In this document: piece after piece, positions 9,551-63,194 of the stretch
Layout: each line of letters begins with the position of its first letter
Numbering within the stretch: position 1 is the first letter of the stretch
Source of the DNA: Octopus vulgaris
Taxonomy: Eukaryota
Length of the DNA stretch: 64,000 nt
NCBI GenBank assembly: GCA_951406725.2
Contig: OX597816.1
Coordinates: forward strand, 59,706,001 to 59,770,000
Direction: 5' to 3'
Program-made: the position numbers and the translations under genes
The notes under the pieces: generated by a model
What the model was told of the DNA's origin: nothing
Databases searched by the model: none
Seen by the model: the letters and a program-made list of their open reading frames with translations, nothing else

Positions 9551-9650
9551 TTTCCCCAAGACACCTGAAGAAGGCTGGAGGGTATATCAGCTGAAACGTG
9601 TTAACAACAAACAAGATAAGGACAAATATCTGTCGAATGTAAATACTGTA
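9551..9650 (+). mobile_element. 5'-truncated copy of the tRNA-headed hammerhead SINE
   Basis: CCCCAAGACAC-CTGAAGA-AGGCTG...CAGCT-GAAAC-GTGTTAACAACAAACAAGAT..., same 3' half as the copies at 32.1, 40.8 and 51.3 kb. Confidence 0.85.
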
Positions 9651-11726
9651 AATAAAGATGGTGTATTTCAACAGAAATAGGGTTATGGAGGAGATAAATT
9701 GGCTTTGTAAGCTAACCTTGGCTGTAGTTGCTATTTTCATTTATTTGTTTATGCTATTACACTTAGAGAAGGCATGAACATCTCAACTTGTAACCATTTA
9801 TAAAGTCCTAGAAATGGCTCTAATTGTCATCAGTAATATCTTGTTTTCAGGTGGCCCCACAATGAAGCAATAGCACTCGTTTGACAGTAAAACAAAGTAA
9901 CATTGTTATAAGTATTATATGTATGTGTAATTTATATCTTGAAGATATATTTCTTTGTAACATGAACAAGTTGCAAGTAAAAGAATCTAAGTTATCTGGG
10001 TAATTTGTATTGATGGAAATATGAAGAAATAAACAACTGTTTGTTTATGGTCAGCAAAAACATGAATCTATTTAATCATCATCATTTAACATCCGTTGTC
10101 CATGCTGGCATGGGTTGGATGGTTTGACTGGGCTGGCACACTGGAAGGGTGCACCAGTTTGATTTGGCATGGTTTTCTACAGCTGGGTGCCTTTCCTAAT
10201 GCCAACCACTCTGAGAGTGTAATGGGTGCTTTTATGTGCCACAGGCATGACACTGGGTCACATTTATGTGCCAATTTGCATGACACCGGTATGTCTCGAC
10301 TGCTATTTTGCTCAGCTTGATGGGTCTTTTTCTCAAGCACAACATAATGCCAAAGGTCTTGGTCATTGCCTCCATGAGGCCCAACGTTCAAGATATTCTT
10401 TATGTGCCAGCATGGGTGTACTTGGCTTGACAGGCCCTCTCAAGCACAGCATATCACCAAAGGTCTCGGTCACTAGTCATTGCCTCCATAAGGCCCCAAG
10501 TTCAAAGATTATGCTTCATCACCTTGTCCCATGTCTTCTTGGGTCTACCTCTACCACAGGTTCCCTCCACAGTTAGAGGAGTGACGGAGAGAGGCAATAA
10601 AAGCAGGGTTATAGTGAGAGCCAGTTATGAGATAATGGGGGAGAGAGGTACTAATGAGAGCTATAAATTTACTGGTAAGAGAGAAAGAGATAGAACAAGT
10701 GGTGGATAGTTGTAGAAATGGTCGCTGAGATGACAGTGACAGTAAAAGTGTGACTCTAGATGGAGATAGGTGGTAGGCAGCATAGACAGGTATATTTGCT
10801 GGTAAGAGGAAGTGGATGGGTATTCATATAAATGTTTGATGCTAAGATACTGTGGAAATTGGTGGTTTTGGTGTAGTGAATAGAGATGAGAGGGTATTGA
10901 ATAGGTTAGAGGGTCAGAAGATGGAGACATAACTCTTCTGTTACCATATTTTTATTGAAATACACTGCTTTCATTTCAATGATTTTGAAAATAACGAATT
11001 TAATAAACTATTAAGCTGGTATTTGGAACAGACTGTTGCCATGCCCCAGCATGGCCACAGTCTAATGACCAAAAACAAGTGAAAAAGAATGAAATCTTGA
11101 AAAGTTTTAATTCAGATGACTTTACCAGAAGTTATCAAAGAATATGGGGTGATCTCAAGCAGGATAATATAAAAAATATTGTGTTCAAACTGGACTAGAG
11201 GCTCAGATGTGTGTATATAGAGACCCCCTTCAATCATGAATGACCATGGAATTGCACCTAGAAAGTTCCCTCCCAAGGCACAAGCCCGAGCAAGGTTGTT
11301 TATGGAGGACCAGCAGTCACACATGCATACCAGCCTCCTTTCTCCATGCCACTGATGTTGTTAAGGCAAAGGCCAATACAGCTTGGCACCTGTAATGTTG
11401 CAATTAATTCCTTCAGCTGAGTGAACTGGAGCAAAGTGAAATAAAGTGTTTTGCTCAAGAACACAGCACAGAGCCCGGTCTGAGAATCAAACTCACTACC
11501 TCATGATTGTGAGCCTGATGCTCTAACCACTGAGCTATGCACCTTAATGTGTGTGTTTGTGTGTGTCTATCCCACCTTCCATCATGACCTCCATTCTGAT
11601 GTCATTTTTTATAACCCAGACATATAGGTTCTAAACACTGGGGTACATATGGCATTAACAAAAATTTAAATATCCCTATTTTTGATCTGACATAAATGTA
11701 AAGTTGAAGATCTAAATGTTTATAGT

Positions 11727-32000: not shown

Positions 32001-32095
32001 ATTTTTATGTAGGGAAATAGAATTGGTTGAATCAACAGGGTTTGTTCTTCTGTGATTGTCAAATCTTTGATATTGTATTAAATCTTGGGAGCTTT

Positions 32096-32357
32096 TACAG
32101 TTCTATATTTAAGAGATGAGGAATTATTTATATTTGATGGATATGGTGTAGTGGTTAAGAGTAGGCTACTAATCCCCAAAATTCATAGTTCGATTCCAGG
32201 CAGTGACCTGAATAATAACATCGAAAAATACCTTATGAATGAGAACCCAGGTTTGAAATTTCCCCAAGACACCTGATGAAGGCTGGAGGGTATATCAGCT
32301 GAAACGTGTTAACCACAAACAAGATGAGGACAAATATGTCAAATGCAAATAATGTAC
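32096..32357 (+). mobile_element. tRNA-headed hammerhead SINE with an inverted copy of its own 3' tail in front
   Basis: 32096-32144 is the reverse complement of the family 3' terminus; A box TGGTGTAGTGG, B box GTTCGATTCC; CTGATGA 32273-32279, GAAAC 32301-32305; flanked by CTTGG(G/T)AGCTTT at 32084-32095 and 32357-32368. Confidence 0.88.
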
Positions 32358-34951
32358 TTGGTAGCTTTGTTAGGTATCCTTAGAGATGTACTCTTTATGA
32401 AACTCTTTCTACCAGTTTTTATAATTACAACCACTACATGTGGAATTGATGGAGCGGGGGTGGTGGAGTGGATACTATTGTTTCAAGTGCAAAAGAGATT
32501 TCTTTCTTATCTAAGTACATCCAGTGTGTTTGACATAGTTTAAGAGAAGCTAATACTAAATTAACAACATGCAATAGTTGTAGTTAATTCATTGGTCTTA
32601 CCCCAAAACACTTTCAACTTCCTCTCAAACCTTCACACACCTCACTGGAGAAGAAAAAAAACCCCGCAAAATTTGAGTAAAAATGAACAGAAATTCTCTC
32701 CATTTTGTGTTATGTCTGAAAGAATATCAGTGTTTTTTCATCCCAAAGCCTCAAACTGACCAGAACTTTGTGAGTGGAAAACTGAAGAAGTCAGTCATCT
32801 GTAAGTCTGTCTGTCTGTCCCCTAACTCTGCCTGACAACCAGTGTTGGTGTGTTTACATCCCTGTATCTTAGCAGTTCATCAAGAGAACCAATAGCATTA
32901 GAACCAGACTAAAGTACTGGGATTGACTTGATTGACTAAAATTCAAGTCAGTGCTCCAGCATGGCCACAGTCTAATCACTGAAACTAGTAAAAGAAAGAT
33001 AAGTCAGTATTTAATGTTGGAACCTAATGGAATGCCTTGCCAATCTTTTACTTGGTTCAATCATTGGAACGTGGCCATGCTGGGGCTCTGCTTTGACAGG
33101 TTTTACTCTAACAAATCAACCCAAGTACTCATGTTTTTTGTTTTTTTTAAAGTCTAGAGCTTATTTTATTTGTCCCTTTGCTAAACTGCCAAGTTACAGG
33201 GGATGTAAACAAACCATCACCAGTTGTCAAGCAGTGAATGGGTGGGTGAGAAATGCAGGTACAAAGACATCATCAATTTAACGTCCCCTTTTCCATGCTT
33301 GTATGGGTTAGACAAGGCAAATTTTCTATGGTCAGGCCTCCTCCTGGTTACCAACCCTCACCTGTTTCAATGTAAAGTCACTTTTCCCCATGCTAAAGTC
33401 ACAGCAAGCACTCCATGCAAAATGCTTAGTGGCAGCATTTCACCTGTCTTTACATTCTGAGTTCAAAATCTGTCAAGGTTGTTTTTGCCTTTCATCCTTT
33501 CAGGGTCGATAAAATAAGTACCACTCGAGCACTGGGTTCAACTTATTCTCTCTGCCTAAACAGCTGGCCTTGTGCCAAAATATGAAATCAATATGTCCCC
33601 TGAAGGTCAGACACATTTTTTCATGAAAGACCGAAAATGAACACTGCTTGTATGACTGACACTTGTTTACAGCCACCATGTGATGTCAGTAAACACATAC
33701 ACACATGCCGGGCTTCTTTCTGTTTATATCTACCAAATCCACTCTTAAGGTTTTGGTTGACCTGGGGCTAAATTAAGACACTTGCTCAAGATGCCACACT
33801 GAGACTGAACCCAAAACCACATGGTCGCAGAGCAAGCTTCTTAACCACAGCCATTATTCCAGTTAAAGAGAAATGTCCACACTTTTATATTGTTTCTAAT
33901 GTAGACACAAGGCCTGAAATTTGCAAGGGCCAGGAACAGTTCACTGCTACTTTATTGACCCTTGAAGCGTGAATGGTAATGTTAACTTTGGTAGGATTTG
34001 AACTCAGAGTGTAAAGGGTTGGAACAAATACTACTGTAAGGTAATTTGTCCGACAGTCTTCACAGTTTTGCCTCTCTACTTACTGGACAACCATTGATGT
34101 AACTGTAAATAGGTGTAGGTGTGACTGTGTGGAAGAAGATTGCTTCTCAACAGCATGGTTCTGGGTTCAATCCCACAGCGTGCCACTTGGGGCAAGTGTT
34201 AGAGGATTTGGTAGACAGAAACTGAAAGAAGCCTCTCTCTCTCTGTGAGGGAGAGAGAAACTATCATTTATTGTTCATGCTGGCATGGGTTGGCTGGTTT
34301 GCTCAGGGCTGGTAAGCTGGAAGGCTGCACCAGACTCCTTTCTGATTTGGCACGGTTTTCTATGGCTGGATGCCCTTCCTAACACCAACCACTCCGAGAG
34401 TGTAATGAGTGCTTTTATGTGCCACCGGCATGACACCAGGGTGCATTTACATGCTACCAGCATGGGTGCCAATTTGCACGACACCAGTATCTGCCACAAC
34501 TGCCGATTTTGCTTGGCTTGATATATGTATAAAGTGTGTTTTTGTGTCTGTCTGTCCTCGAACTCTGCTTGAAAACTGGTATGGGTGTGTTTATGTCTCT
34601 GTAACTTAGTGGTTTGTCAAAAGAGACCAATAGAATAAGTACTAGACTTTAAAAAAACGTACTTGGGTCAATTTATTTGACTTAAATTCTTCAAGGCCAG
34701 CATGGCCACAGTCTAGTGAGTGAAGCAGCAAAATTTTTTTATTTAAATTACTACTAAAATGTTTTTTTTTCTTCTCTAAGATATTTCTTAAAAATGCTGT
34801 TACTGATTTGATTTTGTTGGTGCTAATTAGACTGCAGAGTCACCATTAGTTGCTATATTTTAATTTAGCATTCCTTCTTCTCTTCATTGTTTAAATATTA
34901 TTATTGCTTAACAGAAATTTGATTTCTTAGCACAATTTTATCTCTTGCGCA

Positions 34952-39499: not shown

Positions 39500-41030
39500 G
39501 TCTGAGACGCAGCTTCTTAATGCTGACTAGGGGTTGGCAAGGTAGTTAATATTGACTCCTGTGGGTGGGTCTTTGTGGCCATGCAAGCATTTGATAAACA
39601 CCTGGAATGTTTTTTAGCACTGAGGGTGCTGAATTGTTAAACCTGGAAGTGTCAGGTTATCTAAGGCTAAAACTCACTAGTTTCCAGCTAATACAATAAC
39701 TATTCATCCATTTTCTCCACCTACTATTCTAGAGATGGTCATTGGGGGTAGCATCCTTGGGTATCTCGCCCATGGGATCCTTTCAGAAGCAACTGGCTGG
39801 ATTCTCAACTGAGATGAAGAGTATTATCCAACCATTTTGTTCTTGATCTAATCACATGTTCATCATACTGGAACTGACCTCTCATTGTGGAGAAGTGGCA
39901 ACTCAACCTGGAGAGACTCCTTGATCTTCAAGTTATGCGCTCTATCGTTACTCCAGAGATCCTTCTGTGGAATCCCATTTTGGCTGCTTGTATTCACAAT
40001 TGTACTCTTTCAGTCTTTACCTAATATTTGTGACCAGAGGTGAGGACAAGCATGGAAACTGAATTGAAAATAGTAAGCTTGGCTTTTTTACCAACCACTT
40101 CTCTTTTGAGGATTGAATGCCAGAATTGGCACATTACTGAGCATCCAGTTTAGCCTCCTGCTTCCCATCACTTGTGTATATAACCCTGAGATACTTAAAC
40201 TTTTCCATGTCTTATTGATGTCACTAATATGCAGTGCACTCTAAGATGAGGTTTTTGAGAGGACCAGTGTCTCAGTTTTTGCAACATTAATTCTTGTTCC
40301 TGCCTTGCATCACCTGGCAATAAAATCATTCAATGCATGTTGGAGATCACCTTCTGAAGAGCTATGTTTGTTACACCATGTCGTTTGCTGATATCACTCA
40401 ACTGGTTCTTCATCCATCAATTGTGACACCACTTCTACAATGTCTGTGCATATCTGTGCAGTTCATAAAAATTCTGAAAAGGAAGGGTGACAATACACAC
40501 CCTTGCTGAAGTCCAACATTCATCTTCAAAGGTTTAGACTAAACTCCATTTGTACTCCATATGTACATTATTTACATTTGACGGATATTTGTCCTCATCT
40601 TATTTGTTGTTAACACAACGTTTCGGCTGATATACCTCCCAGCCTTTATCAGGTGTCTTTGGGAAATTTCAAACCTGGGTTCTCATTGCTAAGGTATTTT
40701 TCATCTTTATTATTATTATCATTCAGGTCATTGCTTGGAATCGAACTCGGAATCTTGGGGTTAGTAACCCGTGGCATAGTGGTTAAGAGCACGGGCTACT
40801 CACCCCAAGATTCCAAGTTCAATTCCAGGCAATGACCTGAATAATAATGATAATAATAATAATAATAATATTGAAAAATACCTTAGGAATGAGAACCCAG
40901 GTTCCCCAAGACACCTGATGAAGGCTAGAGGGTATATCAGTCGAAACGCTGTGTTAACAACAAACAAGATGAGGACAAATATCTCTCAAATGTAGAACTG
41001 TATTAAACTCCATTTAGCTAAACACAAACA
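39500..41030 (-). mobile_element. Decayed RTE-clade LINE reverse transcriptase fragment
   Basis: Minus strand around 40480-40551 reads NGV*SKPLKMNVGLQQGCVLSPFL (RT QG motif) and continues across the insertion; further FKYLR-like motif near 40190; stops and frameshifts; boundaries approximate. Confidence 0.75.
40552..41003. mobile_element. Head-to-head inverted dimer of the tRNA-headed hammerhead SINE
   Basis: Minus copy 40561-40772 abuts plus copy 40773-41003; exact 12-bp TSD TAAACTCCATTT at 40540-40551 and 41004-41015; interrupts an RTE RT fossil. Confidence 0.92.
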
Positions 41031-51262: not shown

Positions 51263-51512
51263 TATGGCGTAGTGGTTAAGAACACGGGCTACTAACCCCA
51301 AGATTCCAAGTTCGATTCCAGGCAGTGACCTGAATGATGATAATAATATCGAAAAATTCCTTAGGAATGAGAACCCAGGTTCGAAATTTCCCCAAGACAC
51401 CTGATGAAGGCTGGAGGGTATATCAACTGAAACGCTGTGTTAACAACAAACAAGATGAGGACAGATATCCGTCAAATGTAAATACTGTACATAATTACTC
51501 ATAAATATAGAT
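51263..51512 (+). mobile_element. Full-length monomer of the tRNA-headed hammerhead SINE
   Basis: A box TGGCGTAGTGG 51265-51275, B box GTTCGATTCC 51310-51319, hammerhead 51396-51441; possible TSD AGATTCC at 51252-51258 and 51515-51521. Confidence 0.9.
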
Positions 51513-51690
51513 CTAGATTCCAGCTATCTTAGCCTTGGTATTTACATTTTCTAGTGATAGGGCTGACTATAATTTCTTCCAAGTCTTTCTTTACCAGATG
51601 TTATCTAATTACAACAATTATTTAAATCTTCGTAGAGGGTTTACTTCCTGTTCTCTTCTTAACTTTCGGTACGTTTTTATATTCTGCTAG

Positions 51691-53837: not shown

Positions 53838-54455
53838 ATATAATAATAATAATAATAATAAAACATTGTGTACAGTGCTCAGGTGCTCTACAACTCATCT
53901 AAAGTGTATGTATAGTACATAGGGTAATGTACAAGCATCAGGAAAAGAACAGTGCACGAGTCACGACATACACATATGTGTATGAGTATGGAAGGGGGAC
54001 AATCAGGTGTAGTTTCGGCGGATTTCAGAAAGCATGAGGGCCTTAAAGGATGCAGTGTCATGGCAGTCAACAACTGACGCAGTCTGTTTGTTCCATGCTT
54101 CAGCAACTCTGAGCGTAAAAAAATGTTTCCGAAAGTCATGGGAGCTGTGCTGTTTTCTGACTTTGTAGGCATGTCCACGTGTGTTGGACACATGGAGATC
54201 AAAAAGGTGTTCAGTGTTGTTGTTGGTGAGGTGGTTGATAACTTTGTGGGTGTTTACCAAGTCCATCGCCAGACGCCGGAGCTTCAGTGAATCCATGCCC
54301 AGGGAAACAAGGCGCTCAGTGTATGGTAGGTGTCTGATGGAGGGTATGCGTTTGGTTGCACGTCTCTGAACAGATTCCAGGAGGTCAATGTTCTGAGCAA
54401 GATAGGGGTTCCAAACTGATGATGCGAATTCCAAATGTGGTCGTACCATAGCTGT
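53838..54455 (-). mobile_element. CR1/L2-type LINE 3' fragment
   Basis: 148-aa ORF MVRPHLEFASSVWNPY...LESVQRRATKRI...TRGHAYKV...RKHFFTLRV; (ATT)n tail at ~53838-53860. Confidence 0.92.
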
Positions 54456-55839
54456 ATTGCTCTGAGAAGCAGCAATACCCCTGAGTATTACACATCTGAC
54501 AGCAAGTACAAGTTTATAATCGACAGAAGCTGTGATGTCATCATTTATAACAACACTGCATGAATTTCCTAACCTTGTTATTTAGATATCCCTGTCAGAT
54601 ATGTCATTGTGGTCCCTCCCGCCCATCCCCTACTGTATCCGCACTTTGTATCTCTAATCTCTGCCTCTTCTCTCCCCTTCACCTCATCCACCTACTTCTC
54701 ATCTATCTACAGCTTTATTATACTTTTGTTCTCCAGCTCACCTTACCAACTCCTCCTCCTCTATATTTCTGTACACTTCCCCCCTCCACCACCTTCACCT
54801 GTGCCCACCACTCACTGGATTTTCCTTTATCCTTATCTCTACTGTGTCACTTGCCTTTCACACATTTGCAAACCTACCCAACCAGCCACCCTTCATTCTT
54901 TGTCCCCATTCTTTCTTTATACCCTTTTAGGGTGTTCCCTGACACCTCATCCCCACTACCCTTTCTCCTTTTCCTGTGGAACAAATTTTCAGTATTTAAA
55001 AGAATGTTATTTCATGTTGTATATTCTTACTGCTGAATTCTCCTGTCCACCCCTGCCAACCTGTCTCCCCCACTGCACCTCTTGTGCATTCATAGCTTAC
55101 ATTCTGTATGGAAATCCTACTACCACCTTTTCTGCATATCAACTATAACCATTTCCGTGACAGTCAAAGAATCTTTTCTTTACTACCTACTCCTCCTACT
55201 ACTACTACTTTAGTCTTTGCTAAGTTTACTGTAAGGCCTCTTGATTCTAGGCCTTGCTTCCATAATTCTAATTCCGTCAGCTGTAAGAATTACATCCAGC
55301 ATAAAGAGAGTTCTTATTGACAGCCAATCTTGACATCCTACAAAATTCTAACAAACGGGGAAGGTGCTGAAAGCTGATTTCTGGTGGATGCCTTTGCATC
55401 TCACAAGCCATTCACTCACCATTATATGTCTCTCAAACCATTCATCTACTCTTAGTTTCCTAGTAACCGCAAAGTTAAGTGTGAAAATTTATGAAACGCC
55501 TTTGCCAAATTGATGAACGCAAGGTAGGGGTGCACACTCTCACCAAACTAAAAGCTCCTGCAGTTGTCTTTTAGAAGACATCAGTAGCCCTTCACTCTGC
55601 CACAGAACCAAGATGTATCTCATCTATGCTAATTCTGTTCCTAATTGTATTTATTACTCTTTTTGCGGCTTTCATGACCTGTGTGTGTCTGTATATGTGT
55701 ATATGTAGGCAGGCATGTATGTATTTGTTGGTAATTTTATCTTACTAAATATGAAAAGCGTAAAGGAGCGGGGTTGGGTACACACCAACAAACCATTTCT
55801 CCTCACTCCCTTCATCCTTCTCCACTGACTTTTGTCTAA

Positions 55840-61800: not shown

Positions 61801-62131
61801 TCATTTTTTCAGTTGTTATTGTCATCTTAACGTCTACTTTTTCCTGCTTGCATGGGTCAGATGGCATTTGTTGAAGTAGATTTTCCACTGCCTAAACTTC
61901 ACCTATTTCCAAGCCAGGTAATATTTCCCCTTCGTCATATGCTTCCTCGGAAGATTGGAAACGAGCAACTTTGCTTGTTTGATGCTGATGCTGCTTTACA
62001 TCAAAAGAAGGGAATGTGTATACAGGTTGGTTGGGCTAAACTTGATGACTTTTTACGTCTTCTTTTTACAAGAACAGCTTGGTGCATTGGTGAACTGTCA
62101 ACAGCATTGGCGAGCATGACGATTAAAGTTG

Positions 62132-62456
62132 TACAGTTCTATATTTAAGAGATGAGGAATTATGTACATTTGATGGATATTTGTCTTCATCTTGTTTGTT
62201 AACACGTTTCAGCTGATATACCTGTCATATCTCTCAACTTGTCTTTCTTCCTTATTGCATACCTTGTTGTCAGCTGGGCATGCTATATCTATGATCCAGC
62301 ATAGTTTGTTCTCTTTCTCAATTAAGACTATGTCTGGCTTCCTATTCTCTATCTCATGGTTGGACTGAATCATGAAATCCTATAGGATCTTTGCATTTTT
62401 ATTTTCGACAATGCCTTCGGGTTTATGGTCTGCACTCTTAACCACTATGCCATATG
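62132..62456 (-). mobile_element. Chimeric hammerhead-SINE copy with internal R4/Dong LINE fragment
   Basis: Minus strand: SINE head ATGGCATAGTGGTTAAGAGTGC (62431-62456), then HKPEGIVENKNAKIL*DFMIQSNHEIENRKPDIVLIEKENKLCWIIDIACPADNKV (62224-62430, REL endonuclease PD..D motif), then SINE 3' half from the hammerhead loop II to the terminus (62132-62223). Confidence 0.8.
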
Positions 62457-63194
62457 CCATATGCTCTGAATAATGTGGTTGGGAGACGAGTTCCTTAACC
62501 CTACATCCATCCCTGTGCCCAAGCAATCCTAAACACATTCCCATCAACATTAAGTAGGGGTTTCTAAGTAAAAACAATATTTGTTGGTCTGGGTTCACCT
62601 GCCTGAACACACCCCTTCTTCTAGAATGACTTCCTGTTTAAAGGTGATCTCAATTTAAACCTTCCATTAAAATTTCATGTTAATTAGTTCTTTGCACCAT
62701 CTTAATGATGACAATAGCGATAATAATTTGGTGTGCTAATTCACTAAATCCCTTATTTACAAAATTAATTGAAAGAGAAATGGACTAAGGTAACCTGTTA
62801 AACCAGCTCAACACTAATGATAACAAAACTTAGTTTTAACTAATATCTTTTCTCGTCTTGGTACAAGGTCTGGACCTCTACCATCATCATCTGTTTCTTT
62901 ACTACCCACAAGGGACTAAACATAGAGGGGACAAACAAGGATAGACAAAGGTATTAAGTCGATTACATCGACTCCAATGCGCAACTGGTACTTAATTTAT
63001 CGACCCCGAAAGGATGAAAGGCAAAGTCGACCTCGGCGGAATTTGAACTCAGAATGTAGCGACAGACGAAATACAGCTACGCATTTCGCCTGGCGTGCTA
63101 ACGGTTCTGCCAGCTCGCCGCCTTACCACCATCATCATCATCATCATTGCTTGCTGTCCATGTTCCATACTGTGATGGGCTGGACAGTTTATAA

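What the first reader, a model, noticed from the sequence alone, without database searches (positions are those of the whole stretch)
32084..32368. Hammerhead SINE inserted with an inverted copy of its own 3' tail at its 5' end (Penelope-like architecture)
Seen: 32096-32144 (CAGTTCTATATTTAAGAGATGAGGAATTATTTATATTTGATGGATAT) is the antisense of the family 3' terminus and is fused directly to the tRNA head of a sense copy. The sense copy stops short of that terminus, so the extreme tail is present on only one arm. A 12-bp duplication CTTGG(G/T)AGCTTT brackets the whole unit. Established: asymmetric inverted terminal repeats with a one-sided tail are characteristic of Penelope-like element insertions, not of ordinary LINE-mobilised SINEs.
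Basis: partly seen in the sequence, partly recalled or inferred. Interest (0 to 1): 0.75.

Follow-up and report, generated by a model that had tools for sequence, protein, structure and literature searches.

The report
Penelope retrotransposon end with tRNA head
This is not a SINE but a leftover end-repeat of a protein-coding Penelope-type jumping gene, inserted with the inverted tail typical of that class; what is unusual is that the repeat begins with a tRNA-like sequence that likely acts as its promoter, so the element has spawned an estimated tens of thousands of short SINE-like copies of its own end.

Summary
In detail: a 49-nt antisense copy of the family 3' end (32096-32144) is joined through a shared ATAT to a sense copy that lacks the last 33 nt, inside a 12-bp duplication (11/12). 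But the 'SINE' is the pseudo-LTR of an autonomous Penelope-like element: it follows an RT + GIY-YIG ORF in 30 of 30 loci and runs in frame into the ORF start in others. The architecture is routine for this family: 11 of 20 randomly sampled copies have inverted arms, 51 of 56 classifiable two-armed units have one tailed and one tailless arm, and 44 of 62 have a flanking duplication (control 8 of 400). Two points go beyond what I found in print. The pseudo-LTR begins with a tRNA-like head (A and B boxes), and most copies start there (head 21-mer 4,006 hits against 826 just upstream), which suggests a Pol III promoter in an autonomous PLE; this is untested. And the strict long/short pairing implies that the two reverse-transcription start sites are used together in one insertion.

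The parts
32084..32095 (.). left target-site duplication (12 bp)
32096..32144 (-). inverted arm: last 49 nt of the pseudo-LTR, ending at the long 3' end (carries the 33-nt tail)
32141..32144 (.). ATAT shared by both arms (junction microhomology)
   Evidence: sequence
32141..32208 (+). tRNA-like head; A-box-like 32144-32154, B-box-like 32187-32197
   Evidence: family copies z up to 7.5 against host tRNAs; this copy best z 5.0; box consensus as quoted in PMC8969392
32211..32219 (+). short (AAT)n tract, widely expanded in other copies
32268..32310 (+). minimal type I hammerhead motif (helix I 32268-72/32306-10, CTGATGA 32273-79, helix II, GAAA 32301-04); 3 nt at the cleavage site missing, so predicted inactive
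   Evidence: descriptor in PMC4209133
32311..32356 (+). 3' core of the pseudo-LTR, ending at the short 3' end; in full elements it codes for the ORF N-terminus
32357..32368 (.). right target-site duplication (12 bp, one mismatch)

Best explanation
The unit is an ORF-less insertion of the pseudo-LTR of an autonomous Penelope-like retrotransposon (RT plus C-terminal GIY-YIG endonuclease), likely made when the element's protein nicked both target strands about 12 bp apart and primed two cDNAs on its RNA, one from each of two start sites 33 nt apart, which likely joined head to head through a 4-nt microhomology. Shown: the sequence flanks the ORF on both sides, has two 3' ends, pairs one long with one short arm, and sits in a duplication. 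Inferred: the cDNA from the short site ran to the RNA's 5' end (sense arm) and the one from the long site stopped after 49 nt (inverted arm). Inferred, about 55%: the tRNA-like head is an internal Pol III promoter; an RNA starting there and copied from inside the ORF start gives exactly a pseudo-LTR-sized, SINE-like product, which would explain why ORF-less copies outnumber ORF-linked ones about fivefold. This copy is a decayed, likely inert relic.
For: 30 of 30 loci fetched with RT-EN DNA carry the unit directly behind the ORF; 15 of 30 loci fetched with the ORF's 5' part carry it directly in front, same strand; a 309-aa open frame runs through hammerhead and tail into the ORF (L062) and a database relative shares this peptide (45% over 260 aa). 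RT: Pfam RVT_1 E 4.3e-9. Endonuclease model (pLDDT 87) matches I-TevI, Z 9.2, top three rows all GIY-YIG nucleases. One long plus one short arm in 51 of 56 classifiable units, p 6e-11 against a free choice; 25 of 27 in sets not chosen by score. Duplication score of 8 or more in 44 of 62 units against 8 of 400 mismatched flank pairs. 5' ends within -14..+10 of the A box in 29 of 42 and 18 of 23 head-bearing arms; exact 21-mers 826 just upstream of the head, 4,006 in it. PAc nicks and extends both strands and starts at two internal sites that bound the tail (PMC11167929).
Against: No transcript data on the start site. Absence of T4 terminators on the sense strand (0 of 12 shared TTT sites) is matched by G runs (0 of 12), so it is weak at best. 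A 12-nt palindrome lies just where the 5' ends pile up and could cause the pile-up by itself. A Pol III RNA would hardly be translated, and no in-frame ATG precedes the conserved N-terminus (ATG GCG TAG in the A box; a TAG/TAA stop in 43 of 45 copies read). Rfam and ARAGORN do not call the head a tRNA. The empty site was not seen. In vitro, PAc showed no strand difference in start-site use; coupling of the two sites is my inference from genomic copies.
Confidence: 0.8

Rival explanations
1. The unit is the PLE's pseudo-LTR, but the 5' boundary is not a Pol III start: reverse transcriptase stalls or folds back at the palindrome and tRNA-like structure, or RNase P cuts a longer Pol II transcript there. 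The tRNA piece would then be a captured passenger.
For: Palindrome TGCCCATGGGCA spans -13..-2 and many inversion points lie in or beside it; the 5' ends spread over about 25 nt; D. virilis Penelope has a LINE-like TATA-less internal promoter (PMC2377424); an mRNA is needed for the protein.
Against: Copies without an inverted arm also start at -13..0 (for example L252, L132, L141, window 51264, L395, L381, L392, L396), so fold-back alone does not explain it; the distance to the A box fits the 10-15 nt quoted for SINEs. Stalling and RNase P are not excluded.
Confidence: 0.35
2. One reading: an independent SINE lineage, derived from this pseudo-LTR, amplifies from its own ORF-less master copies with the PLE protein acting in trans.
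For: ORF-less head-start copies are about five times the ORF-linked ones, and the tail-into-ORF junction is rare (72 exact hits against 6,542 for the tail). tRNA plus hammerhead occurs in a non-autonomous Schistosoma retrozyme (PMC4918200 Fig. 7 legend).
Against: The same sequence is the terminal repeat of the coding element; PAc needs ORF sequence downstream of its start sites, which ORF-less copies lack. Subfamily markers were not tested.
Confidence: 0.12
3. Two independent insertions, or a later inversion, put the two arms together.
For: The arms differ in their short shared part (one 9-mer unit, a 2-nt gap, substitutions).
Against: One duplication brackets both arms and none lies at the junction; the arrangement recurs in over half of random copies.
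Confidence: 0.02

Closest known systems
Penelope/Poseidon clade PLEs (D. virilis Penelope; PAc of Anolis carolinensis, PMC11167929)
   Same: One ORF with RT then GIY-YIG; pseudo-LTRs; inverted 5' arm; 30-40-nt tail on one end; hammerhead in the pseudo-LTR overlapping the ORF start; tail inside the ORF's 5' part.
   Different: tRNA-like head with A and B boxes at the start of the pseudo-LTR (Penelope's promoter is LINE-like, PMC2377424); most copies are ORF-less and start at that head; no in-frame ATG found.
Schistosoma mansoni tRNA-Glu/hammerhead retrozyme and other non-LTR retrozymes (PMC4918200; PMC7761336; bioRxiv 10.64898/2026.07.22.740005)
   Same: Short, hammerhead-bearing, high-copy units linked to PLEs; the Schistosoma one also holds a tRNA sequence.
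   Different: Those are non-coding tandem repeats thought to spread through circular RNA; here the unit is dispersed, head-to-head, tailed, and is part of the coding element itself.
tRNA-derived SINEs mobilised by LINEs
   Same: tRNA-like head with A/B boxes 10-15 nt from the 5' end, about 220-260 nt long, high copy number.
   Different: No LINE-derived 3' end, no poly(A) or simple-repeat tail, two fixed 3' ends, inverted duplicated arms, and the body codes for the PLE's N-terminus.

Membership tests
EN+ Penelope-like elements | RT domain in a single ORF, telomerase-related | tested here: met
   Pfam RVT_1 E 4.3e-9. The alignment profile hits telomerase RT at E 4.1e-5, behind two bacterial RTs at 9e-6, so telomerase kinship is only suggestive.
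EN+ Penelope-like elements | C-terminal GIY-YIG endonuclease | tested here: met
   Model matches I-TevI (Z 9.2, rmsd 2.7, 86 aligned), UvrC and T4 EndoII; invariant Y, Y, T, R, H, H, R, E. Pfam GIY-YIG missed our copies and hit relative P0003 only at E 0.23.
EN+ Penelope-like elements | Pseudo-LTRs, direct and inverted | tested here: met
   30 of 30 behind the ORF, 15 of 30 in front; inverted arm within 1.5 kb in 14 of 30 ORF loci.
EN+ Penelope-like elements | 30-40-nt tail on one end | tested here: met
   33-nt tail; one-sided in 51 of 56.
EN+ Penelope-like elements | Minimal hammerhead in the pseudo-LTR | tested here: met
   Core boxes and helices I and II present by reading and folding; no Rfam hit; cleavage not testable; this copy lacks 3 nt.
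Penelope/Poseidon clade | RT phylogeny with named references; no Neptune-type cysteine linker | tested here: inconclusive
   The tree (22 of 56 hits used) had no named clade references. The linker shows no extra cysteine cluster; that criterion is recalled.
tRNA-derived SINE | tRNA-derived head with A and B boxes | tested here: met
   0 of 300 shuffles reach the score against host tRNA-Arg(TCT) or (TCG) in 5 of 5 family copies, 1 of 300 for the window copy; only 10 tRNA sequences compared, so the parent tRNA is uncertain.
tRNA-derived SINE | Non-autonomous family separate from its partner, with LINE-derived 3' end and A-rich or repeat tail | tested here: not met
   It is the terminal repeat of the coding element and ends at two fixed sites without such a tail.
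tRNA-derived SINE | Transcribed by RNA polymerase III | not testable with these tools
   Indirect only: 5'-end pile-up; T-run test weak.
Non-LTR retrozyme | Head-to-tail tandem repeats with a hammerhead in each unit | tested here: not met
   Copies in the random sample are single or head-to-head.

The most novel reading that the evidence does not exclude
An autonomous Penelope-like element that took a tRNA gene as the promoter of its pseudo-LTR: Pol III transcripts from that head, copied by internal initiation, flood the genome with SINE-like units, so that one sequence is both the coding element's end and a SINE; and every insertion is twin-primed, one subunit of the RT-EN dimer using each start site, which accounts for the one-sided PLE tail.
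Probability: 0.45. Interest if true: 0.72.

Novelty: new variant of a known kind. Interest (0 to 1): 0.5.

Why it matters
The insertion itself is an ordinary dead PLE fragment. The family matters for three reasons. If the head is a Pol III promoter, it shows a direct route from an autonomous PLE to a SINE and a promoter type that my searches did not find for PLEs. The tens of thousands of copies make the open question of how PLE tails and inverted ends form testable by counting: strict long/short pairing and a roughly 12-bp stagger are predictions for the existing in vitro PAc system. And repeat pipelines would likely file these copies as tRNA-SINEs, understating PLE content.

Tried and rejected
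Rfam on the window at gathering score: 0 hits; at E up to 5 on five loci: no tRNA or hammerhead. ARAGORN on 11 loci: none. Folding z-scores of head and hammerhead pieces were not significant. Pol III terminator depletion: T4 runs 0.29 per kb in our ORF copies against 0.63-6.6 in relatives and 0.95-3.6 in other elements of this genome, none shared by 30% of copies; but synonymous shuffles were not significant and G runs behave alike, so not used as support. My combined A+B-box pattern failed on its own positive controls; only the B-box pattern was used. First 5'-end tally was broken by AAT tracts and the strict pattern caught only 18 heads; both were replaced. Sequencing runs: no RNA holder listed. 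Empty site: no such joint among the rows shown, 471 rows not shown, and the run with the smallest share had almost no cover of the right flank. Earlier findings of the scan: three look-ups, nothing. One row of alignment A2 (L066_check) was a wrong stretch and is ignored; a hammerhead pair count on A2 was not obtained. The sample selected by head motif stayed at 20 loci.

Full report
Observation. The stretch 32084-32368 reads: 12-bp duplication, 49-nt antisense arm, sense arm, 12-bp duplication. The duplications agree at 11 of 12 bases; one other place among 63,988 on the window's + strand does as well. The antisense arm ends exactly at the family's long 3' end, the sense arm at a short end 33 nt earlier, and the two share ATAT at their junction.

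What the unit is. The window holds five more loci of the family. Among the 30 best genomic matches (of 40 scored, 2,913 candidates), several had upstream DNA that translates into a reverse transcriptase and an endonuclease. A search with that DNA gave 30 loci (of 40 scored), and all 30 carry the unit directly behind the ORF. A search with the ORF's 5' part gave 30 loci, 15 of which carry the unit directly in front on the same strand, its tail running on into the ORF. In L062 a 309-aa open frame passes through hammerhead and tail into the ORF; an unnamed database protein shares this N-terminal peptide (45% over 260 aa). The RT meets Pfam RVT_1 (E 4.3e-9). Pfam missed the endonuclease, but its model (pLDDT 87) matched I-TevI at Z 9.2 with UvrC and T4 EndoII next (Foldseek ranked I-TevI first at E 0.17). 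The unit is therefore the pseudo-LTR of an autonomous Penelope-like element. The clade is probably Penelope/Poseidon, but my tree had no named references.

How common the architecture is. In 140 evenly placed 10-kb stretches (1.4 Mb) I found 21 loci, 20 with pseudo-LTR sequence, 11 of these with arms on both strands; a plain extrapolation gives about 40,000 loci, uneven along chromosomes. 3' ends are bimodal. Of 61 non-redundant two-armed units, 51 have one long and one short arm, 2 two long, 3 two short, 5 could not be classed; p = 6e-11 against a free choice at each arm. In the sets not chosen by alignment score the count is 25 of 27; 20 further loci added 3 of 3 and one unclassed. The tail sits on the shorter arm in 31, on the longer in 14, equal in 6. 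A flanking duplication scoring 8 or more was found in 44 of 62 units (one insertion counted twice) against 8 of 400 mismatched flank pairs; at 11 or more, 25 of 62 against 1 of 400; 12 bp is the commonest length. Contigs of three runs with other organism labels cross the left junction, two cross the right one, so the insertion is shared with them; an empty site was not seen.

Mechanism. Inverted 5' arms and a 30-40-nt one-sided tail are described PLE traits (PMC8557442, passages; PMC8969392, passages). Purified PAc nicks and extends both strands, starts reverse transcription at two internal sites that bound the tail, needs ORF sequence downstream of them and is predicted to be a dimer (PMC11167929, parts 1-2 of 4). 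I infer twin priming: nicks about 12 bp apart, one cDNA from each start site, joined head to head by microhomology. The inverted arm cannot be a fold-back copy of the sense arm, because it holds a tail that the sense arm lacks. The strict long/short pairing says the two sites are used together; I did not see this in the parts I read. The tail can pair with a sequence upstream of the short end (about 11-bp stem, z -1.4), a possible RT landing structure.

The unusual part. The pseudo-LTR starts with about 75 nt that align to host tRNAs: z up to 7.5, 0 of 300 shuffles against tRNA-Arg in five copies; only 10 tRNA sequences were compared. A- and B-box-like motifs are in place. A B-box motif lay within 450 nt behind the endonuclease in 0 of 48 distant relatives that reached that point (of 80 fetched; few families, 30-47% identity) against 7 of 9 own loci; the closest relatives could not be examined as DNA. 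Head-bearing arms begin within -14..+10 of the A box in 29 of 42 cases (7 later, 6 earlier) and 18 of 23 (1 later, 4 earlier); one 'earlier' case in each set looks like an artefact of the palindrome. Genome-wide exact 21-mers number 826 just upstream of the head, 4,006 in the head, 6,542 in the tail and 72 at the ORF start. A start site at the head plus internal initiation would give such ORF-less units directly. Against Pol III: no RNA evidence; a palindrome at the same place; the T-run test is weak; translation needs another RNA, and the start codon is unexplained. I put Pol III at about 55%.

The hammerhead fits the minimal type I form of PLEs (PMC4209133, parts 1-2 of 4): 5-bp helix I, an unpaired base before helix II, palindromic CG. 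This copy lacks 3 nt at the cleavage site, as do at least 23 of 105 motifs counted; it is predicted inactive.

Literature. Nine searches showed no PLE with a tRNA-derived pseudo-LTR head. Nearest: a Schistosoma retrozyme with a tRNA-Glu sequence (PMC4918200, figure legend); retrozymes as PLE derivatives (bioRxiv 10.64898/2026.07.22.740005, part 1 of 5 and passages, no mention of tRNA; its supplements are closed; PMC7761336, passages); Penelope's LINE-like promoter (PMC2377424, passages). Passages of PMC13282606 and PMC8967140 list Penelope and SINE totals only; I chose them from a recalled likeness of neighbouring repeats, and the host is not established here. No supplements were read, and Repbase, Dfam and subscription journals were out of reach, so a curated entry may exist.

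Verdict. A real, single, decayed PLE pseudo-LTR insertion with the standard architecture; the family is a new variant through its tRNA-like head. Interest 0.5.

Noticed in passing
window 62129-62460 (-): Chimeric copy: tRNA-like head, then about 211 bp of a different, abundant LINE (restriction-like endonuclease type by my reading), then the 3' half of the hammerhead and the tail. The join was unique among 40 scored matches; likely a template switch.
   Followed up: partly
window 40540-41015: Head-to-head pair of near-full pseudo-LTRs inside a perfect 12-bp duplication TAAACTCCATTT; the right arm's tail is deleted internally. The notebook's coordinates for it are a few bases off.
   Followed up: yes
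window 51263-51514 (+) and 9551-9655 (+): Two single-orientation copies, one starting at the head, one 5'-truncated just before the hammerhead.
   Followed up: partly
L070 1155-1560 (oriented); family-wide: The reading frame is open from the A box through the AAT tract, hammerhead and tail into the ORF, but its only ATG is followed by GCG TAG; no in-frame ATG precedes the conserved N-terminus. An acceptor-like TTTCCCCAAG ends at hammerhead helix I, where the D. virilis intron ends. Start codon unexplained.
   Followed up: partly
family 3' core (window 32340-32356): A 9-nt unit varies in number between copies (tract lengths 19, 28, 37 in 43 of 46); the short 3' end falls inside it.
   Followed up: partly
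L176 (G000:C12:25267077-25270148): Cluster of seven tRNA-Cys-like genes within 3 kb, two with changed anticodons.
   Followed up: no
L055 and L057 (G000:C4:66.16-66.18 Mb): The same PLE insertion with the same 15-bp duplication occurs twice about 10 kb apart, so a local segmental duplication.
   Followed up: no
window 54006-54581 (-): 192-codon open frame that reads like the C-terminal part of a CR1/L2-type LINE protein (my reading, not tested).
   Followed up: no
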